Assembly: GCA_009914755.4 (NCBI GenBank)
Contig: CP068257.2
Location: 36,576,001-36,640,000, forward strand
Direction: 5' to 3'
DNA from: the human T2T-CHM13v2.0 reference genome, Homo sapiens
DNA: 64,000 bases
The notes beneath the pieces were generated by a model, which was given only the letters and a program-made list of their open reading frames with translations, searched no databases and had not been told where the DNA came from. Below are positions 701 to 26,216 of the stretch, piece by piece. A program made the position numbers and the translations under genes. Position 1 is the first letter of the stretch; each line of letters begins with the position of its first letter.

Positions 701-1028
701 TTTATTTTTATTTATTTATTTATTTATTTAGAGATGGAGTCCCACTATGTCACCTAGGCTGGAGGGCAGTGGTGCAGTCTCTGCTCACTGCAACCTCCGC
801 CTCCAAGGTTCAAGTGATTCTCCAGCCTCAGCCTCCTGAGTAGATGGGACTACAGGTATGCACCACTGCATCCGGCTAATTTTTTTATTTTGAGGAGGGG
901 GTATTTTTAGTAGAGACAGGGTTTCACCATGTTGGCCAGGCTGGTCTCAAACTCCTGACCTCAGGAGATCCGTCCGCCTCAGCCTCCCAAAGTGCTAGGA
1001 TTACAGGCGTGAGCCACCACGCGCAGCC
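679..1028 (-). mobile_element. Alu SINE in reverse orientation, with a degenerate A-rich tail (appearing as T-rich) at 679-730
   Basis: Reads as the reverse complement of the Alu consensus: 'gagatggagtc..caggctggag..gcagtggtgc...cctcagcctcc...gggattacaggcgtgagccaccacgcgcagcc'. The (tttattt)n run at 679-730 is the degenerate poly-A tail. Confidence 0.9.
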
Positions 1029-1959
1029 TTTTTTTTTTTTTTTTTAACTTTCATTTTAGGTTCAGGGGTACATGTGCAGATATGTTATATAGGTAAACTG
1101 TGTGTCACAGGGGTTTGGTGTACACATAATGTTGTCACCTGGGTAATAAGCATAGTACCCAATAGGTTATCTTTCCTGATCCTCTTCCTCCTCCCACCCT
1201 CCACCCACAAGTCAGCCCCAGTGTGTGTTGCTCCTCTCCTAGTATCCATGTGTTCTCCTTGTTTAGTTCCCCCTTATAAGTAAGACTAGGCAGCATTTGG
1301 TTTTCTATTTCTGCATTAGTTCACTTAGAATTATGGCCTCTAGCTCCATCCATGTTGCTGCAAAGGACATGATCTCCTTCTTAGTTATGGCTGTGTAGTA
1401 TTCCATGGTGTATATGTACCACATTTTCTGTATCCAGTCTATCACTGATGTGCATTTAAGTTGATTCCATGTCTCTGCTCTTGTGAATAGTGCTGCAATG
1501 AACATACACATGCATGTGTCTTTATGGTAGAGTAATTTACATTCCTTTGGGCATATACCCAGCAATGAGATTGCTGGGTCGAATGGTAATTCTGTTTTAA
1601 GTTCTTTCAGGAATCGCTACACTGCTTTCCACAGTGGCTGAACTAATTTACACTCCCACCAGCAGTGTATAAGTGGTTCCTTTTTTTTTTTTTTTTTTGC
1701 AACCTCGCCAGAATCTGTTATTTTTTGACATTTTAATAATAGCCATTCTGACTGGTGTGAGATGGCATCTAATTTTGATTTGCATTCTCTAATGATTAGT
1801 GATATTGAACTTTTTGTCATATGCTTGTTGGCCACATATGTGTCTTCTTTTGAAAAATATCTGTTCATGTCCTTTGCCCACTTTTTAATGTGGTTTTTTT
1901 TTTCTTGTAAATTTGTTTAAGTTTCTTATAGCTTCTGGATGTTAGACTTTTGTTGGATG
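1029..1959 (-). mobile_element. L1 (LINE-1) 3' portion, minus strand; poly-A appears as T17 at 1029-1045
   Basis: Reverse complement of the L1 3' UTR and ORF2 C-terminus, for example '...ccagcaatgagattgctgggtcgaatggtaattctg...'. The minus-strand ORFs at 1305-1565 and 1617-1868 translate to L1 ORF2 C-terminal peptides. Confidence 0.85.
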
Positions 1960-2363
1960 TGTGTCCCTGCCCAAATTTCATATTGAAATCTAATCCCCAG
2001 TGTTGGAGGTGGGACCTGGTGGGAGGTAATCAGATCATCAGAATGAATTTCTCATGAATGGTTTAGTATCATCTTGTTGGTACTGTTCTCACAATAGTGA
2101 GTGAGTTCTCATGAGATCTGGTCATTTAAAAGTGTATGGCACCTCCCACTCATGCTCCTGCTTTTGCCATATGATATGCCTACTCACCCTTCAGCTTCCA
2201 CCATAATTGTAAGTTTCCTGAGGACTATCCAAAAGCCAAGCAGATGTCAGCTTCATGCTTCCTGGACAGCCTGCATAAACATGAGCTAATTAAACCTCTT
2301 TTCTCTGTAAATTATCAAGTCTCAGGTATTTCTTTATAGCAATGTGAGAACAGACTAATACAG
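1960..2363 (+). mobile_element. THE1/MST-like MaLR solo LTR nested inside the L1
   Basis: Matches the MaLR LTR consensus: 'tgtgtccctgcccaaatttcatattgaaatctaatcccc..gtgttggaggtgggacctggtgggaggtaatcagatcat...ttctcatgagatctgg...catgagctaattaaacctcttttctctgtaaattatcaagtctcaggtatttctttatagcaatgtgagaacagactaatacag'. L1 sequence resumes immediately after it. A 5-6 bp duplication of L1 target sequence (tggatg / cagatg) flanks the insert. Confidence 0.7.
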
Positions 2364-3250
2364 ATGCATAGTTTGCAAATATTTTCTCCCATTCTATGGG
2401 TCATCTTTTTTACTCTGTTGATAGTTTATTTTGCTAAGAAGCTCTAGTTTAATTAGAATCCATTTATCAATTTTTGTTTTTGATGTTACCGCTTTTGGGT
2501 TTTTTTGTTGAAATATTTGCCTGGTCCTATGTCTAGAATGGTATTTCTTAGGTTATGTTCCAGAGTTTTTAATAGTTCTAGGTTTTACATTTAAGTATTT
2601 AATCTATCTTGAGTTAATTTTTGTATATGGTATAAAGAAGGGGTCCAGGTTCAATCTTCTGCATATGGCTAGCCAGTTATTCCAGCACCATTTATTCATG
2701 GGGAATTTTTTCCCCATTGTTTGTTCTTGGCAAATTTGTCAAAGATCAGATGGTATGTGGCTTTATTTCTGGGCTCTCTTTTGTGTTCCATTGGTCGATG
2801 TGTCTGTTTTTGTACCACTACCATGCTGTTTTGGTTACTATAGCCCAGTAGTATAGTTTGAAGTTGGGTAATGAGATATCTCCAGCTTTATTCTTTTTGC
2901 TCAGTGTTGCCTTGGCTATTTGGGCTCTTTTTTTGGTTTTGTATGAATTTTAAAACAGTTTTTTTCTAATTCTGTGAAGAATGTCATTTGTAGTTTGATA
3001 GGAATAGCCTTGAATCTGTAAATTGCTTTGGGCAGTATGGCCATTTTAATGATATTGAGTCTTCCTATCCATGAGCATGGAATGTTTTTCCATTTGTTTG
3101 TGTTATCTTTGATTTTTTGAGCAGTGTTTTGTAATTCTCATAGAGATCCTTCACCTCCCTAGTTAGCTGTATTCCTAGATATTTTATTCTTTTTGTGGCA
3201 ATTATGAAAGGGATTGCATTCCTGGTTTGGCTTTCAGCTTGGATTCAGCC
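2364..3250 (-). mobile_element. Continuation of the same L1 (mid-ORF2), truncated at about 3250
   Basis: Collinear with the L1 consensus in reverse: '...gcaaatattttctcccattctatggg...ctagccagttattccagcaccatttattcatgggg...ccatgagcatggaatgtttttccatttg...'. Confidence 0.8.
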
Positions 3251-4574: not shown

Positions 4575-7500
4575 TTTTTTTTAATTTTTAATTTAAATTG
4601 AATTTAATTATTTATATAATTTATAAATTTTATATATATTTATTAATATATTTATATATTTTTATTTCCATAGGTTATTTCCATAGGTTTTTTTTTATTT
4701 CCATAGATTATTGGGCAACAGATGGTATTTGGTTACATGAGTAAGTTCTTTAGTGGTAATTTGTGAGATTTTGGTGCGCCCATTGCCCGAGCACCCAATT
4801 TGTGGTCTTTTATCCCTCACCCCTTCCCACCCTTTCCCCCCAATTCCCCAAAGTCCATTGTGTCATTCTTACGCCTTCACATCCTCACAACTTAGCTCCC
4901 ACTTATGAGTGAAACATACGATGTTTGGTTTTCCATTCCTGAGCTCCTTCACTTAGAATAATAGTCTCCAATCTCATCCAGGTCATTGTGAATACCATTA
5001 ATTATTATACACAAACACACACACACATATACATATATCACAGTTTCTTTATTCACCCATTGATTTATGAGCATTTGGGTTGGGGTTCCACATTTTTGCA
5101 ATTGCGAATTGTGCTGCTATACACATGCATGTGCAAGTATCTTTTTCATATAATAACTTATTTTCCTGCGGGTAGATACCCAGTGTGGGATTGCTGGATC
5201 GAATGATAGTTCTACTCTTAGTTCTTTAAGAAATCTCCACACTGTTTTCTATAGTAGTTGTACTAGTTTACATTCCCACCAGCAATGTAGAAGTGTTCCC
5301 TGTTCACCACATCCATGCCAACATCTATTATTTTTTGATATTTTGATTATGGTCATTCTTGCAGGAGTAAGGTGGTATAACATTGTGGTTTTGATTTGCA
5401 TTGCCCTGACCATTAGTAATGTTGAGAATTTTTCCATATGTTTGTTGGCCATTTGTACATCTTCTTTTGAGAATTGTCTATTCATGTCCTTAGCCCACTT
5501 TTTGATGAGATTGTGTTTTTTTCTTGATAATTTGTTTGAGTTCATGGTACATTTTAGATATTAGTCCTTTGTCATATGTATAGATTATGAAGATTTTTCT
5601 CCCACTCTGTGGGTTGTCTGTTTACTCTACTGTCTGTTCCTTTTGTGTACAAAAGCTCTTTAGTTTAATTAAGTCCCAGCTGTTTATCTTTGTTTTTATT
5701 GCATTTGCTTTTGGGTTCTCGATCATGAAATCCTTGCCTAAGCCAATGTCTAGATGGGGTTTTCCAATACCATCTTCCAGAATTTTTATAGTTTCAGGTC
5801 TTAGATTTAAGTCCTTGATCCATCTTGAGCTGATTTTTGTATAAGATGAGAGATGAGGATCCAGTTTGATCCAGTTTCATTATCCTACATGCAGCTAGCC
5901 AGTTATCCCAGCACCATTTGTTAAATAAAGTGTCTTTTCCCCGCTTTATGTTTTTGTTTCCTTTGTTGAAGATTAGTTGGCTGTAAGTATTTGGGTTTAT
6001 TTCTGGTTTCTCTATTCTGTTCCATTGCTCTATGTGCCTATTTTTATACCAGTATCATGCTGTTTTGGTGACTATGACCTTACACTATGTTTTGAAATCA
6101 GGTAATGTGATGCCTCCAGATTTATTCTTTTTGCTTAGTCTTGCTTTGGCTATGTGGGCTCTTTTTTGGTTCCATATTAATTTTAGGGTTTTTTTTTGTA
6201 ATTCTTTGAAGAATGATGGTGGTATTTTGATGGGAATTGTGTTAAATTTGTAGATTGCTTTTGGCAGTATGGTCATTTTTCCAATATTGATTCTACTCAT
6301 CCATGAGCATTAGATGTGTTTCCATTTGTTTATGTCATCTATGATTTTTTTCAGCAGTATTTTGTAGTTTCCCTTGTAGAAGTCTTTTACCTCCTTGGGT
6401 AGGTATATTCCTAAGTATTTTACTTTTTTGCAGCTATTGTAAAAGGGGTTGAGTTCTTGATTTTATTCTCATCTTGGTTACTGTTGGTGTATAGAAGACC
6501 TACTGATTTCTGTACATTAATTTTGTATCTGGAAACTTTGCTGAATGCTTTTGTCAGTTCTAGGAGCATTCTGGAGGAGTCTTTAGAGTTTTCTAGGTAA
6601 ACAATCATATCATAAGCAAACAGCAACAGTTTGACTTCCTCCTTCCTCTTTACCCATTTGGATGCCCTTTATTTCTTTCTCTTGTCTAATTGCTCTGTCT
6701 AGAACTTCCAGTACTATGTTGAAGAGGAGTGAGAGTGAGCATCCTTGTCTTGTTCCAGTTCTCAGAGGGAATGCTTTCAACTTTTTCCCTTTCAGTATTA
6801 TGTTAATTGTGGGTTTGTCAGAGATGGCTTTTATTACATTGAGGTATGTCCCTTGTATGCCAATTTTTCTGAGAGTTTTAATCATAAAAAGATGTTGGAT
6901 TTTGTCTAATGCTTTTTCTGCATGTATTAAGATAATCATGTGATTTTTGTTTTTGATTCTGTTTATGTGATGTTCACATTTATTGACTTGCATATGTTAA
7001 ACCATCCCTACATGCCTGGTATACAACCCACTTGATCATGGTGGATTTTTTTTTTTTTTTTGATATGTTGTTGGATTCGGTTCACTAGTATTTTGCTAAG
7101 GATTTTAGCATCTATGTTCATCAGGAATATTGGTCTGTAGTTTTCTTTTTTGGTTATGTCCTTTCCTGGTTTTGGTAATAGGGTGATATCAGCTTCATAG
7201 AATAATTTAGGGAGGGTTTCCTCTTTCTCTATATTGTGGAATAGTGTCAATAAGATTGGTACCAATTCTTTGAATGTCTGGTAGAATTCTGCTATGAATC
7301 CATCAGTCCTGGACTTTTTGTTTTTGGTAATTTTTAAATTACCATTTCAATTTCACTGCTTGTTATTGGTCTCTTCAAGGTATCTAATTATTCCTGATTT
7401 AAGCTAGGAAGGTTGTATCTTTCCAGGAATTTATCCATCTCCTCTAAGTTTTCTAGTTTATGTGTATAAAGGTGTTCATAGTAGCCTTGAATGATCTTTT

Positions 7501-9044
7501 GTATTTCTGTGGTGTCAGCTGTAATATCTCCCATTTCATTTCTAATTGGGTTTATTTGGATTTTCTCTCTTCTTTTCTTGGTTGATCTTGCTAATGGTCT
7601 ATCAATTTTATTTTATCTTTTCAAAAAACCAGCTTTTTGTTTCATTTATCTTTTCTATTTTGTGTTTGTTTGTTTGTTTCAATTCTATTTAGTTCTGCTC
7701 TGGTCTTGGTTATTTCCTTTCCTCTGCTGGGTTTGGGTTTGATTTGTTCTTATTTCCCTAGTTCCTTGAGATGTGACCAGATTGTTTGTTTGTGCTCTTT
7801 CAGACTTTTTGATGCAGGCATTTGGGGCTATGAACTTTCCTCTTAGCACTGCCTTTGCTGTATCCCAGAGGCTTTAGTAGGTTGTGTCACTATTGTCATT
7901 CAGTTAGAAGACTTTTTAAATTTCCACCTTGATTTCATTTTTGACCCAATGGTCACTCAGGAGCAGATTATTTAATTTCCATGTATTTGCATGGTTTTGA
8001 AGGTTCCTTTTGGAGTTGATTTCCAGTTTTATTCCACTGTGGTCTGAGAGAGTGATTGATATAATTTCAATTATCTTATATTTATTAAGGCCCATTTTGT
8101 GGCCTATCATATGGTCCATCTTGGAGAAGATTCCATGCGCTGTTAAATATAATATATATCCTGCAGTTGTTGGGTAGAATATTCTGTAAATAATCATTGT
8201 TTATTTGCTGACCTTCTGTCTTGGTGACCTGTCTAGTGCTGTCAGTGGAATATTGAAGTCCCCTACTATTATTGTGTTGCTGTCTATATCATTTCTTAGG
8301 TCTATTAGTAATTGTTTTATAAATTTGGGAGCTCCAGTGTTAGGTGCATATATATTTAGAACTGTGATATTTTTCTGTTGGACAAGGTCTTTTACCATTA
8401 TATAATATCCCTCTTTGTCTTTTTTAACTGCTGTTGCTTTAAAGTTTGTTTTGTCTGACATAAGAATAGCTACTCCTGCTTGCCTTTGGTGCCCATTTGC
8501 ATGGAATGTCTTTTTCCACCCCTTTAACTTAAGTTTATGTGAGTCCTATGTGTTAGGTGTATCTCTTGAAGGCAGCAGATGGTTGGTGAATTCTTATCCA
8601 TTCTGCAATTCTGTATCTTATAAGTGGAGCATTTAGGCCATTTACATTTAACGTTAGTATTGAGATGTGTGGTACCATTCCATTCATCAGGTTGTTTGTT
8701 GCATGCATAACTTGGTTTTCTGTGTATGTGTTTTTTTTAATTGTATTTTTGTTTCATAGGTCCTTTGAGATTTACGCTTTAAGAAAGTTCTGTTTTGATG
8801 TGTTTCCAAGATTTGTTTCAAGATTTAGAGCTCCTTTGAACAGTTCTTGTAGTGCTAGCTTGATAGTGGCAAATTCTCTCAGCATTTGTTTGTCTGAAAA
8901 AGACTGTATCTTTCCTTCATTTATGAAGCTTAGTTTCACTAGATACAAAATTCCTGGCTGATAATTGTTTTGTTTGAGGAGGCTGAAGATAGGGCCCCAA
9001 TCCCTTCTAGCTTGTAGGGTTTCTGCTGAGAAATCTGCTGTTAA

Positions 9045-9440
9045 TGTGATCGTTAATACAGAGTGACAACTTGATTGGGTTGAAGGATGCAAAGTTTTGA
9101 TCCTGGGTGTGTCTGTGAGGGTGTTGCCAAAGGAGATTAACATTTGAGTTAGTGGGCTGGGAAAGGTAGACCCACCCTTAATCTGGATGAGTACCATCTA
9201 ATCAGCTGCCAGTGCAGCTAGAATATAAAGCAGACAGAAAAACATAAAAAGCCTCCACTGGCTTAGCCTCCCAGCCTCCATCTTTCTCCTGTGCTGGATG
9301 CTTCCTGCCCTGGAACATCAGACTCCAAGTTCTTCAGCTTTGGGACTAGGACTGGCTTCCTTGCTCCTCAGCTTATAGATGGCTATTGTGGAACCTTGTG
9401 ATTGTGTGAGTTAATGTTACTGAATAAATTCCCATACTCA
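9045..9440 (+). repeat. Unclassified interspersed repeat nested in L1 ORF1
   Basis: It interrupts the L1 ORF1 coding sequence; the ORF1 peptide resumes at 9749-9991. The sequence 'gggtgtgtctgtgagggtgttgccaaaggagattaacatttgagttagtgggctgg...ctaatcagctgccagtgcagctag...cccatactcatat' resembles a known MER/LTR-type consensus whose name I cannot recall with confidence. Confidence 0.4.
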
Positions 9441-9513
9441 TATATATCTATATATCTATATCTATATCTATCTGTCTATCATCTATCTATCTAGCTAGCT
9501 AGCTAGCTATCTG

Positions 9514-9558
<45 letters not shown>

Positions 9559-9745
9559 GTAGCTAGCTAGCTAGCTAGCTGTCTATCTATCTATCTATGT
9601 AGCTAGCTAGCTAGCTAGCTGTCTATCTATCTAGCTAGCTAGCTAGCTAGCTAGCTAGCTATCTAGCTATCTATCTAGCTATCTATCTAGCTATCTAGCT
9701 ATCTATCTATCTATCTAGCTATCTAGCTATCTATCTATCTATCTC
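9441..9745. repeat. Compound tetranucleotide microsatellite: (TCTA)n interleaved with (AGCT/TAGC)n
   Basis: Direct reading shows long runs of 'tatctatctatc' alternating with 'tagctagctagc'. The AGCT unit is self-complementary. Confidence 0.95.
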
Positions 9746-11926
9746 CTATTAGTTCTGTCCCTCTAGAGAACCCTGACTAATGCAATAGGTTACCTGGTAT
9801 TTGTGCCTCACAGCTCTTAAGATTCTTTCCTTCATCTTAACTTTAGATAACATGTTGACAATGTGACTAGGTGATGATCTTTTTGTGATTAATTTCTTAG
9901 GTGTTCTTTCAGCTTCTTGTATTTGGATGTCTAGGTCTCTAGCAAGGCCAGGGAAGTTTTTCTTGATTATTCCCCCAAATATATTTTCCAAACTTTTAGA
10001 TTTATATTCTTCCTCAGGAATGCCAATTATTCTTAGATTTGGTTGTTTTACATAATCCTAGACTTCTTGGAGGCGTCATTCATATTTTCTTATTCTTTTT
10101 TCTTTGTCTTTGTTGGATTGGGTAAATTTGAAAACTTTGTGTTCAAGCTCTGAAGTTCTTTCTTCTGCTTGATTCTATTGCTGAGACTTTCCAGAGCATT
10201 TTGCATTTCTATAAGTGTGTCCATTGTTTCCTGAAATTTTGATTGTTTTTTATTTATGCTATCTATTTCATTGAATATTTCTCCCTTCTCGTATCTTTTT
10301 TTTTTCCTTGCATTGGATTTTTCTTTTGTCTGGTGCCTCCCTGATTAGCTTAATAACTAACTAATCTTTTGGATTCTTTTTCAGGTAAATCAGGGATTTC
10401 TTCTTGGTTTGGATGCATTGCTGGTGAGCTAGTGTGATTTTTTGGGGTTGTTAAAAAACCTTGTTCTGTCATATTACCAGAGATGGCTTTCTCTGGTTCC
10501 TTCTCATTTGGGTAGGCTCTGTCAGAGGGAAGGTCTGGGGCTCAAGGCTGTTGTTCAGGTTCTTTTGTCCCACGGGGTGTTTCCTTGATGTAATACTCTC
10601 CCTATTTTCCTAGGGATGTGGCTTCCTGAGGGCCAAGCTGTAGTGATTGTTATCTCTCTTCTGGATCTAGCCACCCAGCAAGTCTACCAGGCTCCGGATT
10701 GGTACTGGGGATTGTCTGCACAGAATCCTGTGATGTGAACAATCTGTGGGTCTCTCAGTCATGGATACTAGCACCTGCTCCACAGTGGAGGTAGCAGAGG
10801 GGTGAAATGGACTCTGTGAAGGTTCTTAGCTGTGATTAATCCACTATTTTGGTGCTGGTTGGCCTCCTGCTGGGAGGTGACACTTTTCAGAGATCATCAG
10901 CTGTGGTAGTATGGAGAGGAACAGGCAGTGGGCAGGGCCCTAGAACTCCCAGGAGTATATGCCTTTTGTCTTCAGTTACCAGCATGGGTAGGGAAGAACC
11001 ATTAGGTGGGGGCAGGGCTAGGCATGTCTGAGCTCAGACTCTCCTTGGGCAAGGCTTGCTGTGGCTGCTGTGGGGTATGGGGGAGTGGTTCCCAGGTCAA
11101 TGGAGTTATGTTCCTGGGAGGATTATGGCTGCCTCTTCTGTGTCACGCAGGTTTTTAGGAAAGTGGGGGAAAGCCAACAGTCACAGGCCTCACCCAGCTC
11201 CCATGCACCCCAAAGGGCCAGTCTCACTCCCACCATGCCTCCCCGCAACAGCACTGAGTCTGTTTCCAGGCAGCGGGCGAGCAGGGCTGAGAACTTGCCC
11301 CAGGCTACCCACCTCCCAGCTGCAAAAGCAAGTGGGGCTTTCGTTCTTCCCCCACCGGTGGAGTCTGCACACTGGTTTCATGCCCTCCCCTGAATCTGGC
11401 CAGGAGACTTCTCATTCCGTTGGAATTGTTACAAAGTTCAGCTGGAGGTTTCCTTCTCCCTGTGGTCTTTTGCCAGTGCCTCTGGCAGCCCTCCTCAAGG
11501 ACCCCTGTGAGGCAAGGCAGAAATGGCTTGCTAGGGGATCTAGTGAGTCCACAGAGCTTTTCCTGCTGCTTCCTCTACCCCTGTATTTCGCTTGGCTGCC
11601 TAAATTGACTCACCTACAGGTAAGGTCAGAATCTTCTCCCATAATCTAGACCTTCAGGCTCCCCAGTGGGGGTCTGTGTTTGGGGGTGGACGATCTCCCT
11701 TTTTCACTTCCACAGTTTGGGCACTCACAGTATTTGGGGTGTCTCCTGGGTCCTGCAGGAGCAATTTGTTTTCTTCAGAGGTTCTGTGGGTTCTCTTGGC
11801 TTTCCTAATGTATTCCTGCGGTCATTGTGGAGCAAAAGTTCACAATTCAAGCCTCCACAGGCTGCTCTGTCCATCCGAGTGGGAGCTGCAATCTAGTCCT
11901 GTCTCCCGTCCACCATGATCTCCCCG

Positions 11927-11941
11927 ATAACAAAGGTTTTA
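11927..11941. repeat. L1 target-site duplication, copy 2 (ataacaaaggtttta)
   Basis: Matches 4560-4574. The paralogous block at about 16519-16545 shows the uninterrupted (empty-site) sequence. Confidence 0.8.
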
Positions 11942-12519
11942 AAAATGATAAAACAGAAAACAAATTATTGCAAAATGTCAGCTCCTGTAAATAAATCTAT
12001 GAATCGAGGGCTAAATTCATAAAACAAATTTTAAAAGTTTGAGTGGTGGTTTTGTTGAAGATTTTTTATTGTTGTATAAAACCAGTCGAAATTTCTTCAG
12101 GTAAATATTAAGTTACTTATGCAAATTTCTAATAACAGTTCATAGCATACAGAAAATGGCCTTTATTGCTTCAGATATCTCTGTGTTAAACTTCAATTAT
12201 GGCTTCAGTAATAGTGAATCTTTCCTTTAAATTAAAACACAATATTTATACTATATAATTCTAGGGGGGGTCCAAAGACATGGAAATAAAATAGTCATAA
12301 GAATTGAATGAAATAAAATTTTCCTTGAAAAACAGAAACAGAAATTATAATGCTATATCTATTTGAATAAGAGCAGCTAAATAACAGTAGCTAAACTAAA
12401 AAGAGATAAATCAAGATAACTTTAAAGAGATAGCCCAGGCTGCTGTGTCTCACTGTGACTGTGGGTGTTGAGGGCCCTGCTGCTGGGAGAGCTGAGTGAA
12501 ACCTGCTGGCCCTGAATCC

Positions 12520-13503
12520 CTAAGCCTCACAGCACCTCACTTCTCCTTGCTGGGAACCTGATGACTCAGGGGACCCCTGGTCCTTGTGGGCCTCTGTTGG
12601 CTGTACCTGAAGCAGCAGGAGCAAAGAACCCCTAGTAAAAGGCAGGAACTTGAACTCCATGTCAGCCAGGATCTGCCTACTGCAATCATCTTCTTTTCTT
12701 AGCTCCCGGAGCTTTCTCTCAGTGGACAGAACTGCCCTCCAGCTTTCCTGAGCTCTTTCCACACAGGCAAGAATCTCCTTCTGATAGAAGGAAGTGATTC
12801 TTTCCAATTCTTTGCTGATATTTTCAGCCATCTCCTTGTAGAGGCTGTGAATCTGCTGTGTGTATTCACATTTCTACACACGCTCAGAAGTTTCTTCTTC
12901 ATTTCTAACCTGTGTGTTTCCACCGCAGGTGATCTTCTCTGAAGTTGCGCTATGTGTTCTTGATGTGATTCAGGTAGGATTTGAAGCTTCAGCTGCAGGT
13001 TCTGGATCCCACCTGCAAGTTGGGAATTTTCAAACTGCAAAGACGCTTTCTCAGTTTGGAGATCTTTGATTTGTCCTGTGAGCTCTTCATTCATTGATTT
13101 TTTTTCCCACAATTGTCAAGCTATTTCTTGATTTTTCTTGACTTTCACAGAACACATTTAAGTCACCATCACCCAGGACGCTCTTCAGATGGCCTTCTGA
13201 CTGATAGTTGGGCGGGAGGGGCTGGGGCAGGCAGTCTTCATTTTCTGCTTTCCTCTTTAGCTGTACTTTCGAGTCCTCGTCACTGTGGTCCCTAGAGAAA
13301 TCTCCCAACTGCATGGTGTCCAGCAGGTTTTCAGCCATAGATTTTAATTGGCTCATGGTATCTTTCATGACCTGTTTTATTTGTGCATTCAAAGGTTTCC
13401 AGCTTTTCTTTCTCTCCTTCCTTTCCTGTACTGTCTGCTTCCATCTTGCAATTTCTTGGTCGAGCACTTCTGGACTTTCTGCTAAATGAGTGTTTTCATT
13501 CAA
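12520..13503 (-). pseudogene. Coiled-coil-like coding remnant: three consecutive minus-strand ORFs in different frames (13503-13087, 13112-12699, 12831-12520). Possibly a pseudo-exon of a duplicated gene family
   Basis: Nearly 1 kb of almost continuous open reading, with heptad-like charged and Leu-rich peptides ('...ELTGQIKDLQTEKASLQFENSQLAGGIQNLQLKLQ...', 'MAENISKELERITSFYQKEIL...'). There are two frameshifts. A degenerate paralog lies at 17140-17400 ('MAEDMNNELERITSFYQKEILFYEEELKKAGQQFC*'). I cannot assign a family. Confidence 0.3.
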
Positions 13504-15304
13504 ACTGTTATTTCCTTCTGAAGTTTTTCTCCATCCTTCTTTGATCCTTTTAAGATGTGTCCTGAATCAGTCACTTGAGAACATTTAGGAGACTCACTTT
13601 TCCATGCTTTTTCCAGAAAGCCGCCTGTGTCCTGCAGGGAAGACCTGCTCAGATTTGTATTAATGATTGACAAGCAGGGGGATTGTAATATTTAAGGTCT
13701 GTGGCAACTTGAGGGCTTCCTGGGTCTGTGTCTTTAGCCCAGTGTTCTGCCTGCCTTCTACATGGACCTCCTGAAGAGAACACCTTTTGTTCAGCTCTTT
13801 TCCTCTTCATAAAGTGCCTTGTTTCTTAATAATTAAGACCACACAGCAGTACAAACCAGGATCTCCCAGGGAGCCCTGGGGTTTATCTCATGATCTCAGC
13901 CTTCACCAGCTCTGTAGCCCCAGCAGCTCCAGAGCAGCTGGAGAGACATTTGGGGACCAGCAGCCCCTCTGTGGCTCTGCCTTTGCTTGCCAGTGGCCTG
14001 TGGGCCACAGCTGCCTACTCGGAACCCTGCGGAGCGTTCTGTCTCTAATGCTCACAAGTGCCTGGCAACCAGGATAGAAGATCAGTTGTGCTGGGGGAGG
14101 GGAGCCAGCCAGGTTGTAGAAACAGCATCCCTGACTTTGTTCTGCTAACTGTGCAGAGAGAGGTGATAGTCTCCGCCCAGGCCATGAGGGACCTGGAAAT
14201 GGCTGATGACACGGTGGAGCTCGGCCACACCAGGCCCAGCTGGCCCCACAGCAAACCAGAGGGTCCAAGTGGGTCCATGCCCTGTCCCTTCCTGTCCACA
14301 AGGGCCTCTCAGGGGACAGTGGTGGGGCCCATCCCTGGGTGAGGCTCAGTTTCCTGATTTCAAGTTTCCTTCCGCACAGGGAAGCTGGGTCCTGCCCACC
14401 AAGGTCCCAGGGATCCTCCTCTGAGGCCCCCTCTCTCCTTTGGGTTTAGTCAACGGAGAGGGAGATGGGGAGAGGACTGAAAGGTCTCCCCAAAGGTACA
14501 AGCTGAGAGACCTGGATTTGCAATGTAAGAACCCAGGAGAAATAAGTGGAACTGACGGGGTCTAAAATGTCACGGCTATTCTGTAAAGCAGGTTTGTCCC
14601 TGTTCCATCCAAGTGTCCTGAGTGAGCGGGACTCTGCTTCGAGGGTGTCAGGTTGACCCTGGCTCTTTCCCTTGTGTGGCCCTGCTATCTTTGGTACATG
14701 CCTCCCAAGGTGGCCCTGGGGACAGTCTCCAATCCACTGAGTCATCTTCAGAAGTCTGCATGCATCTGCAGAGGGGCAGGTCCTTCTCAGCCTGGATTCC
14801 ACTAAACCTCTTCCCCGGCAGAGTCAGGCTCAGAGCCTCCTCGTGCAGCCCTGGACTCTGCCGGGAGCAATTAGTCTCAGAATCTCGATCTGAGAGAGAA
14901 GCGAGCGAACTGGCAGCTGGGGCCAGTCTGGGGTCCTAAGGGTGTTGGGGTTCCAGACCCTCACAGGACATAGAGGGGCAGTGGAAGTGGCCCTCCCAGG
15001 AGAAGTCAGATCCCTTGCAGGGCCGCAGGACCCCAACTCTGCAAGGGCAACTGGTTGGTCTTTTAAAAGGATCAAAATGTGTTGAAGAAACGACAGTAAT
15101 GCCTAGAACACCAACCTGGCACTAAAATGAGTGAAACAGAGTTACAACCAGGGACCCGAGGAAGATCCAGGATATTTTGCTGAGTGAAATAGGAAGATGC
15201 AAAAGCACACATGTAGAGAGGAATCCACAAAAATCTCAAAGGACACGTACTCACTCCCTCCTTTGAAAGCAGAATTTGAAGAAGCAAAGAGGAGCTGCTC
15301 CCTG

Positions 15305-16045
15305 AGCTTCTCGCCTCTCCCTTCTCCTCCCTTCTCCCTTCTCCTCTCCCTTCCTCTCCCCTCTACTCCCCTCTCCTGGCTTCTCCTCTCCACTTCTCTC
15401 CTCTTTCCTCCTCTCTCCTCTCTTCTTCCCTTCTCTCTCTTCTCATCTCCTCCCTTCCCTTCTCGCCTCCCCTCCTCTCTCCTCTCCCCTCCTCCCCTCC
15501 CCTCTCCTCTCCCCTCCCCTCTCCTCTCCCCTCCCCTTTCCTCTACCCCTTCCCTCCTCCCCTCCTCTCCCCTCCTCTTTTCTCCTCTCCTCCCTTCCTC
15601 CCTCCCCTCCCCACTCCTACCTTCCTCTCCTCCTCCCTCCTTCCCTTTTTGCCTCCTTTCCCCTCGTCTCCCCTTCTCTCCCCTCCTCTCCCCTCCTTTC
15701 CCCTCCTCCTCCTTCTCTCCCCTTCTCTCCCTTCCTCCCCTCCTCTCCTCTTCCCTCCTCCCCTCTTCTTCCCTCCACTCCTCCCCTCCTCTCCCCATCC
15801 CCTCTCCCCCCTCTCCTCTTCCCTCCTCTCCCCTCCTCTCCCCTCCTCCCCTCTTCTTCCCTCCTCCCCTCCTCCCCTCCTCTCTACTCTCCCCTCTCCC
15901 CTCCTCCCCTCCTCTCTTCCCCTCTCCTCTCCCCTCCCCTCTGCCCTCCCCTCCTCTCTCCTCCTCCACTCCTCTCTCCTCTTCTTTCCTCCCCTCCTCT
16001 CCACCTCCTTCCCTCTGTCCTGTACTCTGCTCTCTCTTCTTCCAT
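15305..16045 (+). repeat. ~730-bp polypyrimidine (CT-rich, (CTCCC/CCTCT)n-like) low-complexity tract
   Basis: The plus strand is almost exclusively C and T. The overlapping 275-aa and 294-aa ORFs (EEGRG... and PLPSPP...) are translation artefacts of this tract. Confidence 0.95.
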
Positions 16046-16429
16046 GTTGTCTTTTCTTATATGTACTTTAAATATTTTTGATTTTGTTAATACAAGTACT
16101 GTGTATGCAATTCATACCTTTTTAGCAGACAGCTCACATGGACCCAAGTTGGGGTTAACATGCAGATTGTGCAGGGGTTCCCTGCGGATGCACCCCTGTG
16201 TGCCCTGATGTGGACCTGCTCCTTCCTGCTTCCTGGGCTCCAGACAGAAACACCGTACCCCTGCACCAGCCTCTGCCTCAGCTCTTCACAGTCAGCACAC
16301 CCTCCGCTTCCTGTCAGGGTGTTCTCTGCTGAGTCTGGTTATGGGATCCCTTTCTGTGCAGAGCCATGCTCCCGTGTCACTGTGTGTCACCTTCAAGCTG
16401 TCCCCGTGTGTATGCCTGTGTGAGAATAT

Positions 16430-17470
16430 GTGTGTGTGGGTTTGCCATCGAAGGAAAACCTTTATTTTGGCTGCTAACATTTGGAAACATTTAGAGAACA
16501 AACAATATCTTTTAAAAAACATCAAAGGTTCAAAAAAACAAGACAAGAAACAAACTGTTGTAAAATTTCAACTCCTCTAAATTTGTCTTAAATTGAACTT
16601 AGAACTAATCTAATAAAAATAGTATGAAGTTTCAATGGTGTGTTGTTGTTGTCTAGTATTTTTTGGCATTGTTTTTTAAAAACCAGTCAAAATTTATTCA
16701 GCTAAATATTACATTATTTGTACAGATTTATAATAATAGCTTACAGAAGTGAACTTTATTGTTTTCCATGTTTCTATTCATGTCCAATTTTGATGACAGT
16801 TTAAATCATAGTGGACCTGTTATTTAAATCAAAATATAATACTTATGCATATAATTTTAGAGGGTCCAATGATTTTGAAATAATGTATTCATAAGAGCTA
16901 TTTTAAATAAATGTATATTTAAAAATACAATTTTAGAAATTGTAGTACTATAAAACTTCAGAAAGAGAAATTGCACATCAATTAAATAACAGTAGCTTAA
17001 CTAGAAGATAAATGAAAATTACTTTTAAGGACGAAAACAAACAAATCATAAACTCTGAGTGAAACCTGCAGGTACCCCTGGATCCCTGAGCCTCACAGCA
17101 CCTGCCTCTTCCTTGCTGGGAACCTGATGACCCAGGGGGCCCCTAGTACTTCCACTCCTCTGTGAGCTGCGCCTGGAGCAGCAGGAGCAAAGGGGCTGCT
17201 TGGGAAAGGCTGGAACTTGAACTCCACATCAGCCATGATTTGCCTGTTGCCATCATTTTGTTGTTTTAGCTCATGGAGCTTTATCTCAGTCAGCAGAACT
17301 GCTGCCCAGCTTTCTTGAGCTCTTCCTCATAGAAGAGAATCTCCTTTTGGTAAAAGGAAGTGATTCTTTCCAATTCATTGTTCATGTCTTCTGCCATCTT
17401 CTTGTAGAAGTTGAAAATCTGCTGTGTGTAGTTCGTATTTCTGCACATGATGGGAAATTTCTTCTAGATT
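16430..17470 (-). repeat. Paralogous copy (block B) of block A (4480-4574 plus 11942-12900); lacks the L1 insertion
   Basis: Collinear similarity of roughly 75-85% by eye. For example 'gtgtgtgggtttgccatcgaaggaaaacc...acatcaaaggttc...' matches 4480-4574, and 'gagtgaaacctgcaggtacccctggatccctgagcctcacagcacctgcctcttccttgctgggaacctgatgacccagggggcccc...' matches 12490-12590. Confidence 0.6.
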
Positions 17471-18160
17471 TCTAAGCATAGAGGAACATAGTAATTTAAC
17501 AGGGAGATACAGAGTGAACACCCTTTTAATCAAATGATAAAATGATAAAAGTTAACATAAAAATATTAGGACAAGCTGACATCATGTACCTCTTGATATG
17601 ATGCACTGAAAAGAACACAACATTATTTCTATGATTTTCTGCCAATAATGCATAACCTGAATCTAACCATGAAGAAATAGCTGAGAACCCCAAGTTGAAG
17701 GGCATACCACAAGGTAACAGCCCATATTCTTCAAAACTATAAAGGTCAATAAAACGTAGAAAAGGCTGAATAATTATTTTGGAATTAAGGAGACCCAGGG
17801 GATGGGAGAGCCAAATGCAATACATGATGCTGGATTCTACCCTGGACCAGAAGAAAACTAGTTACAGATGAAATTATTTGGAAGACTCACAAAATTTAAA
17901 TATGGACAATGGATTAGGTAAGGATTGTGTCACTGTTAAATTCCAGTTTTGATCGTTGCATTCTGGTCAGGAAATGTCAAAATTTAGTGTCAGTGGGTTT
18001 AATAACTTCAACTTATTTCAAAACAAAGAGTTGCTAAAATTCTTCAACCATGATCCCTTCCTGACATTGTGGTCAAGCTATGTATGGCTCATGGTAGGTC
18101 TCTTCTCATTTTCTGGTGGGGTAGTTAATGTGAAAACACAGCAGGTAAAACCATCATAAA
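17470..18160. repeat. Unclassified old interspersed repeat that terminates block B
   Basis: The sequence character changes abruptly at 17470. The content ('...ggacaatggattaggtaaggattgtgtcactgttaaattccagttttgatcgttgcattctggtcagg...') resembles a mammalian-wide repeat consensus, but I cannot name it. Confidence 0.3.
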
Positions 18161-19976: not shown

Positions 19977-20360
19977 GTGATATTGTTTGGCTCTGTGTCC
20001 CCACCCAAATCTCATCTTAAATTATAATCCCCACATGTCCAGGGAGGGACCTGGTGGGACATGATTGGATCATGGAGGCAGATTTCCCCTTTGCTGTTCT
20101 CATGATAGTGAGTGTGTTCTCATGAGATCTGATAGTTTTAAAAGTGCGGCACTTCCTTGCTCTCTCATTCTCTCTCTCTCCTGCTGCATTGTGAGATGTG
20201 CCTTGCTTCCCCTTTGCTTTCTGCCATGATTGTAATTTTCCTGAGGCCTCCCCAGCCATGTGGAACTGTGAGTCAATTAAACTTCTTTTCTTTATAAATT
20301 ACCCAGTCTCAGGTAGTATTTTCATATCAGTATAAGAATGCACTAATACAACCTGTAGTG
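19977..20360 (+). mobile_element. THE1/MST-like MaLR solo LTR
   Basis: Reads 'tgatattgtttggctctgtgtccccacccaaatctcatcttaaattataatccccacatgtccagggagggacctggtgggac...ttctcatgagatctgatagttttaaaagtg...cccagccatgtggaactgtgagtcaattaaacttcttttctttataaattacccagtctcaggtag...cactaataca', which matches the MaLR LTR consensus from start to end. Confidence 0.65.
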
Positions 20361-23300
20361 TGAACCTCAAAGTCAAGTTGAGAGGATTGAAGAAATGATG
20401 TAGATTATGTACCCTGTGTGACGCCTCTCATGTTATTCAGTGGTAGTTGGCTCCCTCTCCACACCTTCTTGGGAGATTCTAATTTTGTCGAAGGATCAGT
20501 CCTAGATCGCAGTGGCAGTGCTGACATTGCTGTAAACTTCAGGCCAATGTGGCAGCATACCATCTAGCCATATTGCAATGGAGAGGTCATGCAGGGGTAC
20601 TGTATGAATCAGTGCCCAGAGATAAAGGGGTGGTCTGTCCTCTGCTGCAAAGTAGGACAATGCTTGGTCTCCAGCTCTTCACCTCCTGGAAACTCACCCC
20701 CGTTTTGTGCTTGAATTCATGCTCTCTGAACAAGAGAAACTCATGTCATCTCTCTCATCCTGTAAAGCACTGCTGAGAACAATCATGCTAAAATAATTTA
20801 GAGAGAGAAAATGTTAAGCAAAGACTGTCAAAACAATACTCAAGAATACCAATAAGGAAGGCTGTTTTCAGTTAGCAAAATCTCCAACTAGGGGAGATTA
20901 AACAGCTCTTACAAAAGTGCGCGTTATACAACTATTTCATCACACGTTGAGAGCCAGCATCTCAGGATCCAGCCGTGAACCAACATCTGAAATACCTTTT
21001 CCCGTAATCCCCTTCATCCAAGAATAAACACTTTTAATGAAAGTCCCAAGAGGAAGTAAAAAAGAATTTGTTTTTCCAGTTTCTTTTAACAATCTTTCCT
21101 AAAATAGGGGGCTATTCTTGTTTGCACCTTCCTTATAACAGTTCAGTCAAATGTGGCCACTGCTACAGCTTCTAGCAAGTTCCCTGGGTGCAGAGAATTG
21201 GGAACTGGCACCTGCAAGACAAGCAGGCACCAGGATTTTGGGGGATTTTAATTTACTAACTACTCTTTATCCTTTTGGTGAGCTTGCATTTCAAACCTTG
21301 CCAAGAGACACATCTCCTTGAATTCTGCTGTCCTGTCTCAATGTGAAAGGCTTAAGAAGGATCATTTTGTTATTTCAAAACACTAGAGCAAATACTTCCA
21401 AGACTGTCTTGAAAAGTTCTTTGGAATTAACATCAAGCACTTACTATATAATGAAAGAGTCATGCATATACGATTGTTCTTTTAGCTGAGGAGTGTTTGG
21501 TAGTAATAATGGGAACAGAATTTGAGAGCCAGATTCTAAGCAGGAACGTAATAACAGACTTGAAGATAAAAAAAATATGGCTTTCCCTTAGCAGGAGGAG
21601 TTGTTGAAACCTGAAAAGCTCTGTTTATGGTTTTACCAGGAGCTTCTAACATCATGTAGAAAATGGATGTACAAATGTAATTAAACACAGTAACATGAAA
21701 CTGCGTGGAAAATTTGGCAGGGAATCATATTTTTTTCCTGATTATATAAGTAATACACATGTTCTTTGTGGAAAATATGGACATAAAAATATGGCATGTA
21801 GAAGAAAATTAAAATTATACAATTATACCACAAAATCATTTTCTGATGTATATATATTATTTTTCTAAAAAATTGTATTTATGCCCTATTCATATTTGTC
21901 CTGTTGCTTTTTGCTTTATGCTTAATTTAATCATATCTTTATATTGTAGTATGTGAACGGCTATCTCCCTAGGACACGTATTGCAAACATTGTTTTTCTT
22001 TAAGATCTAGAGTTTTATCTGAAACATTTATTTGAATCTTGCAATCCACTCCAAAACATACCCACATTTGTTTTACTATCAAATATGTAGCATATAAATA
22101 TAAAATGTAAACTGCATTGTAGATAAGTAAATATTATGTACATATAGACATAAAATATAAACTACAAAATTATAATATATAAAGCATATCAAAATAATAT
22201 TAATGAAATGTATGAAGCTGTACATAAATGAAAGATGCTATGTCCTCTTTAAAATTTTAATTTCATACCATTTAAACATATCTGCTTACCACATGCGTAA
22301 GAATTTCTTTGCCCAACTTGAAATAGCAACCTTAAAATATTCTATGTCACTGGAAAAAACTTGATGGCAATTTTTTATATACAACCCCACATGCACACAC
22401 ACCCACACGCAGAAGAACAACATCCATTTAGGGACTCCTTGGACAAAATTTCAAGTCTTGAAGAAGTAGGTTTACTCAAGCAAAACTAACCTCCTTTCCA
22501 AGTCTGGAATAGGTATGAGATGTCCTTTCACTAGATATAAATTTATCAATGTACAGAAAAACAAAATCGATGGGTCTCAATTTTTCACTGTAAAATTTCC
22601 TTCCTTAAATTTCATACAGTTTGGGCACCTGTTGTTCCTTGTTGGCCTGTAAGAAAATGAGTCACCATGTGCAAAAGATGAGCCATAGATCTGTTCAGAA
22701 ATAGTCACTCATGTTTGACATGACAGCTTGTTTTCCATATATTCTCTTGGTTGTTATTTTACATTGCATACATATAATAATAAAGTCATATTTTCTCCCA
22801 GCATGGCTTTCTAAGTGGAGTTAAATATATCAATATTTTATATCATACTTCACAGAGTGTCATGGCTTCCCATTTTGCCACCTGATCCAGACTGACAGTC
22901 ACCGCTGTAGGGGACCATACCATATACTTAGGCATGATAAAGGCCCATAGGTTGAAAGACAGAGAAGCATCCCTGACCCAGTAACTTACCATTTACTGGA
23001 GGAACGAGCCCAGCCTAGGCTGAAGAGCTAGTTGAGGAGGTGTCTCCACCACCCAACTCAACGAAGTCTAACATTTCACAGCTAGATCATCATTCCTTTG
23101 GCTTTAACCTGCAGAAATTGTATTGCTTCCCAAAATGCATATATAAGAGAGGTAAAGCCATACAATTTAATCAGTCATCTGCAATCGTGTTTCTCCAAAA
23201 GGGGTGGCCAGGCTGTCTGCATCAGTATCCTGGGGTAGGGAGGAGGAGGGTGGATGATTGATTGGAGATTTCTGAGTCCCATCATGAGAGATTCTTATTC

Positions 23301-25919: not shown

Positions 25920-26216
25920 GGCTGGCATGTTGGCTCCATGCTTCGGGAGGTAATCCCACTACTTTGAGAGGACAAGGAAGGAGGATTGCTTGAGGCCAGG
26001 AGTTTGAGACCAGCTGGGCAACAAAGAAAGACCCCATTGCTACAAAAAATTTAAAGAAATTAGCTGAGCACAGTGGCATATGCCTGTAGTCTCAGCTACT
26101 CTGGAGGCCGAGGCAGGAGTATTTATTGAGCTCAGGAGTTTGAGGCTGCAATGAGCTATGATTCAGCCTGGGAAACAGGGAGAGACCCTGTCTCTATAAA
26201 AAAAGAAATAAAAATT
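25920..26216 (+). mobile_element. Alu SINE (diverged, older subfamily), plus strand
   Basis: Contains '...gaggattgcttgaggccaggagtttgagaccagctgggcaacaaag...gcctgtagtctcagctactctggaggccgaggcaggag...gcctgggaaacagggagagaccctgtctctataaaaaaag'. Confidence 0.85.

What the first reader, a model, noticed from the sequence alone, without database searches (positions are those of the whole stretch)
11942..13503. Duplicated ~1 kb block carrying minus-strand coiled-coil-like ORF remnants, with a degenerate paralog at 16430-17470. Possible terminal exon or pseudo-exon of a tandemly duplicated gene family
Copy A carries nearly 1 kb of almost continuous open reading on the minus strand (13503 to 12520) as three frame-shifted ORFs. 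The peptides are heptad-like, charged and Leu-rich ('NEELTGQIKDLQTEKASLQFENSQLAGGIQNLQLKLQ', 'MAENISKELERITSFYQKEIL...'). Copy B retains only the last ~35 codons ('MAEDMNNELERITSFYQKEILFYEEELKKAGQQFC*') and is truncated at 17470 by another repeat. The homology extends into non-coding flank (for example 'cctcacagcacct..cttccttgctgggaacctgatgac.caggggg.ccc'). That argues for a local segmental or tandem duplication rather than two copies of a transposable element. I cannot assign the peptide to a family. Candidates include a degenerate member of a multicopy coiled-coil family, or alternatively the internal region of an unrecognised ancient ERV or DNA transposon.
Basis: partly seen in the sequence, partly recalled or inferred. 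Interest (0 to 1): 0.5.

Follow-up and report, generated by a model that had tools for sequence, protein, structure and literature searches.

The report
Dead cTAGE5-like retrogene plus partial duplicate
The "coiled-coil ORF remnants" are the decayed remains of an old intronless copy of the ER-export gene MIA2/cTAGE5 in a primate genome, with a second, partial copy of its tail 4.5 kb away; this is an ordinary pseudogene, not a new gene or mobile element.

Summary
Window 11931-12912 and 16523-17479 are direct repeats (80% identity in the coding-like part, 68% in the AT-rich tail), and the three minus-strand ORFs exist as described. The peptides belong to the MIA2/cTAGE5 (TANGO1-like) family. Their closest relatives are single-exon genes of about 500 aa, annotated "cTAGE5-like / cTAGE family member 15-like", in hippo, tree shrew, sifaka, canids, bats and ungulates (E 3e-57). 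Copy A is larger than reported. The whole gene-equivalent lies contiguously at about 13972-12496 on the minus strand, within a conserved unit 14620-11931. It has lost its start codon and carries at least 10 frameshifts plus stop codons. The homologous part of a real MIA2 gene is split into at least 12 exons over 27 kb, so the family is mRNA-derived (processed). The upstream flank is colinear with the hippo locus, so the locus appears old (inferred: before the primate/Laurasiatheria split). Copy B holds only the last ~140 codons plus the 3' flank. It is sister to A (497/500 bootstraps, K2P 0.23), has no poly(A) end, and no 5' part survives in the window. I read it as an old, local, DNA-level partial duplication. 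It is neither an ERV or transposon nor a terminal exon. Ordinary; low interest.

The parts
11931..14620 (-). Copy A, the full conserved unit: upstream conserved region, disabled single-exon cTAGE5-like coding region, and 3' flank. It is cut at 11931 by unrelated sequence.
   Evidence: One colinear DNA alignment to the hippo gene locus, L001 9502-12060 = window 14440-11931 (67%, 2627 bp). Tupaia L002 9735-11334 = 14146-12557 (69%). Sifaka L003 9578-9796 = 14620-14400 and 10809-12085 = 13199-11927.
12496..13972 (-). Coding-region equivalent of copy A (pseudogene body). The start codon is lost, and there are at least 10 frameshifting indels and several in-frame stops.
   Evidence: tblastn: P0001 aa 9-473 and P0002 aa 37-480 map to 13883-12472 in alternating frames. 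Codon-level alignment to the intact hippo and Tupaia CDS lists indels of 4, 1, 1, 10, 1, 11, 4, 5, 1, 1, 1, 7 and 4 nt, and shows ACA/AGA in place of the hippo ATG at about 13972. Stops are visible in the translations.
12520..13503 (-). They correspond to coiled-coil regions of cTAGE5.
   Evidence: ORF list. The joined peptide hits cTAGE5-like proteins at E 3e-57 and is 33% identical to residues 220-497 of the 806-aa MIA2 isoform X4 (E 3e-36).
13973..14620 (-). Conserved region upstream of the former start codon (5' UTR or promoter-equivalent), shared with the hippo, Tupaia, sifaka and jackal genes.
   Evidence: Colinear blastn blocks. No CpG island is present (CpG observed/expected 0.15-0.26).
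11931..12495 (-). 3' flank or UTR-equivalent of copy A (AT-rich). It ends abruptly at 11931.
   Evidence: Aligns to copy B 16523-17029 (68%) and to the hippo 3' flank. The alignment shows A switching to 'GGGGAGATCATGG...' at 11931 while B continues.
16417..17479 (-). Copy B: a partial duplicate holding the last ~140 codons (17479-17063, one frameshift near 17325, plus stops) and the 3' flank (17062-16417).
   Evidence: tblastn: P0002 aa 363-413 = 17478-17326 and aa 415-504 = 17323-17063. DNA matches: hippo L001 11087-12108 = 17478-16471, and Tupaia L002 10979-11334 and 11657-12109 = 17478-17123 and 16896-16417. Sister to A in 497/500 bootstraps. The 3' end lies at a shared CA-rich microsatellite with no poly(A).
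14621..16416 (-). Spacer between B and A. It is the ancestral upstream flank of the gene, colinear with the hippo upstream flank, and contains a CT-rich low-complexity array at 15307-16043.
   Evidence: Colinear blocks: hippo L001 8826-8893 = 14787-14717, 8492-8587 = 15089-14993, 8247-8322 = 15352-15271, 7746-7916 = 16364-16199. TRF finds the array at 15310-16013.

Best explanation
Copy A is a unitary-type pseudogene. It is the dead, primate-lineage version of an old single-exon gene that arose by retroposition of a cTAGE5-type MIA2 mRNA. The ancestral product was a protein of about 500 aa with the cTAGE5 N-terminus, a membrane anchor and the two coiled-coil regions, but without the C-terminal proline-rich, Sec23/24-binding domain. 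That gene is still an open reading frame in hippo, tree shrew, sifaka, canids, bats, camels and other mammals. In this Alu-bearing primate it has lost its start codon and accumulated many frameshifts and stops, so it encodes nothing. Copy B is an old DNA-level duplicate of only the 3' third of the gene plus its 3' flank. It now lies about 1.8 kb upstream of copy A's conserved unit (about 2.4 kb upstream of A's former start codon), in the same orientation. It never had, or has since lost, the 5' two-thirds, and it is equally dead. Shown: family membership by homology, full extent, disablements, intronless state compared with a multi-exon parent, the A-B sister relationship, and flank colinearity with hippo. 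Inferred: retroposition as the origin, an age predating the split of primates and Laurasiatheria, duplication in the early primate lineage, and no present function.
For: [quoted passage not shown] One search finds 42 relatives of 300-540 aa, many named MIA2, CTAGE5-like or cTAGE family. Searches show that the long relatives are MIA2 isoforms, including the 806-aa cTAGE5-type form; the hippo protein is colinear with residues 1-513 of 806, including the N-terminus and membrane anchor (E 2e-40); the window peptide is 33% identical to residues 220-497. Extent and decay. Single-exon relatives: (1515, 1464 and 1488 bp for 504, 487 and 495 codons plus a stop). Processed origin; the lizard MIA2 gene spans 72.5 kb, and the homologous residues 1170-1655 lie in at least 12 exons over about 27 kb, whereas the window copy is contiguous. 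Old shared locus: with five colinear blocks over about 2.2 kb of hippo upstream flank. Primate host: an Alu sequence. Copy B. Sister to A with K2P 0.233, against 0.34-0.52 to other species. No poly(A), and a breakpoint at a CA microsatellite. No 5' remnant elsewhere in the window. No second copy near the gene in four other species. No anthropoid protein of this subfamily was retrieved, only sifaka and a partial mouse-lemur entry.
Against: No poly(A) tail or target-site duplications could be shown for copy A, because its 3' end is cut at 11931, so retroposition rests on intron loss alone. The parental exon structure was shown in a lizard, not in a mammal. Orthology with the sifaka gene is doubtful: A-sifaka K2P is 0.49, larger than A-hippo at 0.34, so there may be hidden paralogy or very fast evolution. 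Hippo synteny rests on five short blocks of 68-78% identity. I could not check transcription, so a non-coding role such as a transcribed pseudogene is not excluded. I could not confirm the species or the existing annotation of the locus.
Confidence: 0.88

Rival explanations
1. Copy B is not a DNA duplication but an independent, 5'-truncated L1-mediated retrocopy of the transcript of copy A (or of the same source gene) that happened to land 2.4 kb upstream of it.
For: B is 5'-truncated inside the coding region and extends to roughly where all family members' 3' flank similarity becomes hard to follow. B carries an AATAAA at about 16465. A simple tandem duplication would be expected to put the partial 3' copy downstream of the full copy, not upstream.
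Against: There is no poly(A) or A-rich tail at B's end. The end lies in a CA-rich microsatellite that hippo, Tupaia and sifaka share at the same position, so it is ancestral flank rather than a tail. B's AATAAA is not conserved in the relatives. No target-site duplication is visible. The prior chance of a retrocopy landing within a few kb of its source, in the same orientation, is very small.
Confidence: 0.08
2. One reading: the blocks are terminal exons or pseudo-exons of a multi-exon, tandemly duplicated gene family on the minus strand.
For: There are two same-orientation copies 4.5 kb apart, and copy B consists only of the 3' end.
Against: Copy A contains the equivalent of the whole protein, from the N-terminal anchor to the stop, in one uninterrupted block. 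Its intact relatives are single-exon genes. No further family fragments exist in 64 kb. Relatives have no tandem partner within 10 kb.
Confidence: 0.03
3. The blocks are internal sequence of an unrecognised ancient ERV or DNA transposon.
For: The sequence is repeated in the window, is flanked by LINE-1 material, and has broken ORFs.
Against: Pfam finds no gag, pol, env or transposase domains, only sub-threshold coiled-coil noise. The homologs are cellular MIA2/cTAGE5 family proteins with E down to 1e-57. There are only two copies, which are sister to each other. The flank is colinear with the hippo gene locus.
Confidence: 0.01
4. The locus is dead as a protein gene but retained as a transcribed, possibly regulatory pseudogene or lncRNA, for example testis-expressed like other CTAGE members.
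For: About 650 bp upstream of the former start codon is still recognisably conserved with four other mammals. CTAGE-family members are known cancer/testis-expressed genes (PMC4949931).
Against: That conservation (67-78%) is no better than in the decayed coding region, so it shows no special constraint. There is no CpG island. No expression data were available.
Confidence: 0.1

Closest known systems
MIA2 / cTAGE5 (TALI; TANGO1-like ER-exit-site proteins), the parent gene
   Same: There is colinear homology over the cTAGE5-specific N-terminus, the membrane anchor and both coiled-coil regions. The hippo relative aligns with residues 1-513 of the 806-aa isoform at E 2e-40, and the window peptide with residues 220-497 at 33% identity. 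In cTAGE5, coiled-coil 1 binds Sec12 and coiled-coil 2 binds TANGO1 (PMC4862334, PMC4565863).
   Different: The copy is intronless, whereas the parent is multi-exon. It lacks the roughly 290-aa C-terminal proline-rich domain that binds Sec23/24. It is only about 27-33% identical. In this window it is not an open reading frame at all.
Short single-exon 'cTAGE5-like / cTAGE family member 15-like / MIA2-like' genes of non-anthropoid mammals (hippo P0002, Tupaia P0001, sifaka P0052, canid P0192-P0198, camel P0008, bats, deer, horse)
   Same: They share the same architecture and length, and are the closest sequence relatives (44-57% amino-acid identity, 65-77% DNA identity). They also share 5' and 3' flanks, and the upstream flank is colinear with hippo.
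   Different: Those genes are intact ORFs with dN/dS of about 0.5-0.6. The window's copy A is disabled, and the window also has an extra partial copy B that none of the four examined loci has.
Primate CTAGE retrogene family (CTAGE1/4/6/8/9/15 and the MGEA6 pseudogenes)
   Same: These also derive from cTAGE5 by retroposition followed by DNA-based duplication, and they include many pseudogenes (PMC4949931 citing Zhang & Su 2014; PMC4565863 citing Comtesse et al. 2001).
   Different: That expansion is dated to the Haplorhini ancestor, and from my own knowledge its members remain close to cTAGE5 and keep the proline-rich domain. The present copy is only about 33% identical to cTAGE5. It shares its locus with hippo and groups with non-primate short genes, so it belongs to a separate, older retro-lineage. 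I did not have human CTAGE sequences to test this directly.

Membership tests
MIA2/cTAGE5 (cTAGE) protein family | Significant sequence homology to the cTAGE5 coiled-coil regions | tested here: met
   E 3e-57 to a named cTAGE5 protein. E 3e-36 and 33% identity to MIA2 isoform X4 residues 220-497. Names confirmed.
MIA2/cTAGE5 (cTAGE) protein family | cTAGE5-type N-terminus with a single membrane anchor | tested here: met
   A relic '...PRAPWEILVCTAV...' at about 13880-13840 aligns to 'PAFPWEILVCAVV' in hippo and 'FPWELVICAGV' in MIA2 isoform X4. It is no longer translatable.
MIA2/cTAGE5 (cTAGE) protein family | C-terminal proline-rich domain (Sec23/24 binding) | tested here: not met
   The alignment to the 806-aa isoform stops at residue 513. 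The short relatives end there, and the window sequence after about 12496 is AT-rich flank.
MIA2/cTAGE5 (cTAGE) protein family | Intact open reading frame (functional member) | tested here: not met
   The start codon is lost, and there are at least 10 frameshifts and several stops in A. B is a fragment with a frameshift and stops.
Processed (retroposed) gene copy | Absence of the parent gene's introns | tested here: met
   The parent region lies in at least 12 exons over about 27 kb in lizard MIA2. The window copy and the hippo, Tupaia and sifaka genes are contiguous.
Processed (retroposed) gene copy | Poly(A) tract at the 3' end and target-site duplications | tested here: inconclusive
   A's 3' end is cut at 11931. 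The B and outgroup 3' flanks show no A-tract. The copy is too old for target-site duplications to be expected.
Processed (retroposed) gene copy | Located away from the parent gene | tested here: met
   No other MIA2 or cTAGE exons occur anywhere in the 64-kb window. The chromosomal position itself is not known.
Haplorhine CTAGE expansion (CTAGE1/4/6/8/9/15) | High similarity to cTAGE5 and an origin in the Haplorhini ancestor | tested here: not met
   The copy is only 33% identical to the cTAGE5-type isoform. The locus is shared with hippo.
Local segmental or tandem duplication (A/B pair) | The two copies are each other's closest relatives, adjacent, in the same orientation, with a non-retro 3' end | tested here: met
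   Sister in 497/500 bootstraps. Direct orientation, 4.5 kb apart. No poly(A).
ERV or DNA-transposon internal sequence | Transposon or retroviral protein domains, and many dispersed copies | tested here: not met
   No such Pfam domains. Only two copies in the window. A genome-wide count was not possible.

The most novel reading that the evidence does not exclude
The window preserves the corpse of a distinct, pre-boreoeutherian cTAGE5-derived retrogene: a ~500-aa membrane-anchored coiled-coil protein without the COPII-binding proline-rich domain. This gene is still kept open, under weak constraint, in many Laurasiatheria, tree shrews and lemurs, but was lost in anthropoid primates. If the living versions are functional, they would be natural 'PRD-less cTAGE5' proteins that could bind TANGO1 and Sec12 without engaging Sec23/24. 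The one description of CTAGE evolution I could access (a review's summary in PMC4949931) mentions only the haplorhine expansion.
Probability: 0.45. Interest if true: 0.25.

Novelty: already known. Interest (0 to 1): 0.1.

Why it matters
It matters little for the window itself. It explains a puzzling stretch of 'almost open' coiled-coil reading frame as a routine pseudogene of a known family, and it removes the ERV, new-gene and new-exon readings. One side observation has modest evolutionary interest. A PRD-less, single-exon cTAGE5-like gene appears to be shared at one locus by hippo and primates. It is open in many mammals and dead here. This is an example of lineage-specific loss of an old retrogene, and it adds to the view that CTAGE retrocopies are primate-specific.

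Tried and rejected
1. Pfam scan of the three ORFs and a PDB sequence search gave only sub-threshold coiled-coil noise. The family has no Pfam model over this region, so absence of a Pfam hit was uninformative.
2. In one search the hippo and Tupaia results were mixed, because one file held both loci. This was redone separately.
3. Synteny with Tupaia, sifaka and jackal beyond about 700 bp upstream gave only interspersed-repeat matches. One colinear jackal block (L004 3697-3992 = window 18772-18470) may be synteny or a shared old repeat; this is undecided.
4. I looked for an 'empty site' for copy B in the outgroups. None was found, because hippo colinearity stops at 16364, about 50 bp short of B.
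5. I searched for the tail of copy A beyond the sequence that cuts it at 11931 and found no match.
6. I searched for a 5' part of copy B split off by an insertion. nhmmer found nothing. The weak tblastn hits around 20300-20480 have E above 2 and no DNA similarity to A, so I rejected them as chance.
7. The bat MIA2 isoform P0102 was not on record for gene structure, so I used lizard P0185 instead.
8. The primary CTAGE evolution paper (Zhang & Su 2014) is not held, so I used only a secondary citation.
9. From memory, the sequence at 11925 and below looks like an L1 5' end, and 17480-17900 looks like an old L1 3' region. Only the L1 ORF1 and RT domains at 8772-9197 and 6610-6993 were actually verified. 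The exact element boundaries were not.

Full report
**1. The observation**

The window is mammalian DNA. It contains Alu elements (for example 42748-43050, 'GGCTGGGCATGGTGGCTCAC...') and LINE-1 coding remnants, so the host is a primate.

Self-comparison confirms the reported duplication. Window 12492-12908 matches 17055-17475 at 79.9% over 422 bp. Window 11931-12427 matches 16523-17029 at 68.3% over 526 bp. Both matches are in direct orientation, and this region has no other copy in the 64 kb. A global alignment shows the similarity starting abruptly at A 12912 / B 17479 and ending at A 11931 / B 16523.

The three minus-strand ORFs exist exactly as described: 13087-13503, 12699-13112 and 12520-12831. 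They can be joined into one reading with two frame changes.

**2. What the peptides are**

Pfam and PDB searches gave only sub-threshold coiled-coil noise.

A search of the large protein collection with the joined 327-aa peptide returned three hits:
- 'cTAGE family member 15-like' of hippopotamus: E 1e-52.
- A rhinoceros hypothetical protein.

A second search, seeded with the hippo protein, found 42 relatives of roughly 300-540 aa. They come from camels, horse, deer, fox, bats, yak, pangolin, goat and sheep, and many are named CTAGE5-like, MIA2 or cTAGE family.

An exhaustive HMMER search reached the long relatives. These are MIA2 isoforms, including the 806-aa cTAGE5-type form.

The hippo protein aligns colinearly, from residue 1, with residues 1-513 of that 806-aa isoform (E 2e-40). 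This covers the cTAGE5-specific N-terminus, the membrane anchor and both coiled-coil regions. The alignment stops where the proline-rich domain would begin. The window peptide is 33% identical to residues 220-497 (E 3e-36).

So the remnants belong to the MIA2/cTAGE5 (TANGO1-like) family. More precisely, they belong to a short subfamily that lacks the proline-rich domain.

**3. True extent and state of copy A**

tblastn with the Tupaia and hippo proteins maps residues 9-473 of 487 and 37-480 of 504 onto window 13883-12472, in alternating frames. At the DNA level the hippo locus aligns as one 2.6-kb block, L001 9502-12060 = window 14440-11931. The sifaka locus reaches window 14620. Copy A is therefore the entire gene-equivalent plus its conserved flanks, not a 1-kb piece.

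Aligned to the intact hippo and Tupaia coding sequences, it shows three kinds of damage:
- The start codon is lost (ACA/AGA at about 13972).
- There are frameshifting indels of 4, 1, 1, 10, 1, 11, 4, 5, 1, 1, 1, 7 and 4 nt.
- There are several in-frame stops.

It is a pseudogene.

**4. Origin**

The hippo, Tupaia and sifaka genes are single-exon: 1515, 1464 and 1488 bp for 504, 487 and 495 codons plus a stop.

In a genuine MIA2 gene (lizard, 72.5 kb), the homologous residues 1170-1655 are spread over at least 12 exons across about 27 kb. A copy that is contiguous over all of these, and that begins with the cTAGE5-specific first exon, is best explained by retroposition of a cTAGE5-type mRNA. 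This is an inference. No poly(A) tract or target-site duplication could be shown.

The upstream flank of copy A is colinear with the hippo upstream flank in five blocks, out to 2.2 kb from the hippo start codon:

| Hippo locus L001 | Window |
|---|---|
| 9502-9982 | 14440-13974 |
| 8826-8893 | 14787-14717 |
| 8492-8587 | 15089-14993 |
| 8247-8322 | 15352-15271 |
| 7746-7916 | 16364-16199 |

Tupaia, sifaka and jackal share 400-700 bp upstream. This indicates a single old locus inherited by primates and Laurasiatheria, rather than scattered insertions (inference).

The intact copies evolve fast but stay open, with dN/dS of 0.50-0.62. Among primates only strepsirrhines yielded annotated proteins: sifaka, plus a partial mouse-lemur entry. 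No anthropoid protein was retrieved.

**5. Copy B**

Copy B carries homology to hippo residues 363-504, in two frames with a frameshift near 17325 and stops (17479-17063). It also carries the 3' flank down to about 16417.

On 420 shared sites A and B are sister sequences in 497 of 500 bootstraps. Their K2P distance is 0.233, against 0.34-0.52 to hippo, Tupaia, sifaka and jackal. B therefore arose from A or its immediate ancestor within this lineage, long ago. I estimate tens of millions of years; that figure is an inference from the distance, not a dated result.

B's 3' end aligns with hippo, Tupaia and sifaka through a CA-rich microsatellite that all four share. After that the outgroups still resemble each other, while B switches to unrelated sequence. 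There is no A-tract, and B's AATAAA is not conserved.

None of the four other loci has a second copy within 10 kb. No 5' part of B exists elsewhere in the window.

I conclude that B is a DNA-level partial duplication. Either it is a duplicative insertion of the 3' third, or it is what remains of a tandem copy whose 5' part was deleted. A 5'-truncated retrocopy is a minor rival.

The spacer between B and A (14621-16416) is ancestral upstream flank. It carries a CT-rich low-complexity array at 15307-16043.

**6. Boundaries**

Copy A's 3' flank is cut at 11931. A LINE-1 lies on the same strand downstream, with the ORF1 dsRBD domain at 8772-9197 (E 1.4e-27) and a reverse-transcriptase domain at 6610-6993 (E 7e-9). 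That the L1's 5' end is the sequence starting at about 11925 is my inference from memory of L1 5' ends; it was not tested.

The sequence abutting B at 17480 could not be identified.

**7. Comparison with what is known**

cTAGE5 is a ubiquitously expressed ER-exit-site protein. Its coiled-coils bind Sec12 and TANGO1, and its proline-rich domain binds Sec23/24 (PMC4862334, PMC4565863).

The human family is known to include many pseudogenes (Comtesse et al. 2001, cited in PMC4565863). It also includes a retroposition-plus-duplication expansion dated to the Haplorhini ancestor (Zhang & Su 2014, cited in PMC4949931).

The copy here is of the same general kind, a cTAGE5-derived retro-copy that later underwent DNA duplication and decay. 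It seems to belong to an older, separate lineage for three reasons:
- It is only about 33% identical to cTAGE5.
- It lacks the proline-rich domain.
- It shares its locus with hippo.

I could not test this directly against human CTAGE sequences.

**8. Verdict**

This is a real feature, correctly spotted, but ordinary: a disabled member of a known gene family with a partial local duplicate. The 'terminal exon' and 'ERV/DNA transposon' ideas do not.

Interest is low (0.1). The only mildly novel angle is the existence and anthropoid loss of an old PRD-less cTAGE5-like retrogene.

Noticed in passing
window 5000-11925 (minus strand) and 1411-3242: A long LINE-1 lies immediately 3' of copy A on the same strand, with the ORF1 dsRBD domain at 8772-9197 (E 1.4e-27) and an RT domain at 6610-6993 (E 7e-9). 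A second L1 3' fragment at 1411-3242 is 71-73% identical to 5030-6477. The L1's exact 5' end (possibly about 11925, where copy A's flank is cut) was not verified.
   Followed up: partly
window 15307-16043: A roughly 700-bp CT-rich (CTCTC/CCCTC-type) polypyrimidine array with GC of 0.60-0.64 and strongly negative GC skew. It lies in the spacer between the two copies, inside the stretch that is colinear with the hippo upstream flank. It accounts for the GC-rich, skewed 14-16 kb bin. There is no CpG island (observed/expected at most 0.52).
   Followed up: partly
window 9441-9744: A (TATC)n microsatellite of about 76 copies inside the L1 region. The hippo locus also carries a TATC-type repeat (L001 6178-6333), which produced a spurious cross-match.
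   Followed up: no
window 54479-55066: A large (GGAT)n microsatellite of about 147 copies at 74% matches. It accounts for the strong positive GC skew of the 54-56 kb bin.
   Followed up: no
window 707-1026, 42748-43050, 49168-49472, 50926-51223 (also about 25950-26214): Alu elements 77-84% identical to one another. They identify the host as a primate.
   Followed up: partly
window 31519-32047 vs 36884-37397: A 529-bp direct repeat pair at 85.6% identity, about 5.3 kb apart. Adjacent pieces (28078-28322) match in inverted orientation. It is probably an interspersed repeat family; it was not identified.
   Followed up: no
L001-L004; proteins P0001, P0002, P0052, P0192-P0198: The short (~500 aa), single-exon, PRD-less cTAGE5-like gene is an intact ORF in many Laurasiatheria, Tupaia and sifaka, with dN/dS of about 0.5-0.6. 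Canis aureus has two consecutively numbered loci (LOC144301943 and LOC144301944) encoding near-identical 508-aa products, which hints at a recent duplication there. The sifaka gene sits on an unusually long branch.
   Followed up: partly
L004 3697-3992 vs window 18772-18470: A 315-bp, 68%-identical match between the jackal upstream flank and window sequence upstream of copy B, in the colinear orientation. It could mean that synteny resumes beyond copy B, which would make B an insertion. It could equally be a shared ancient repeat.
   Followed up: no
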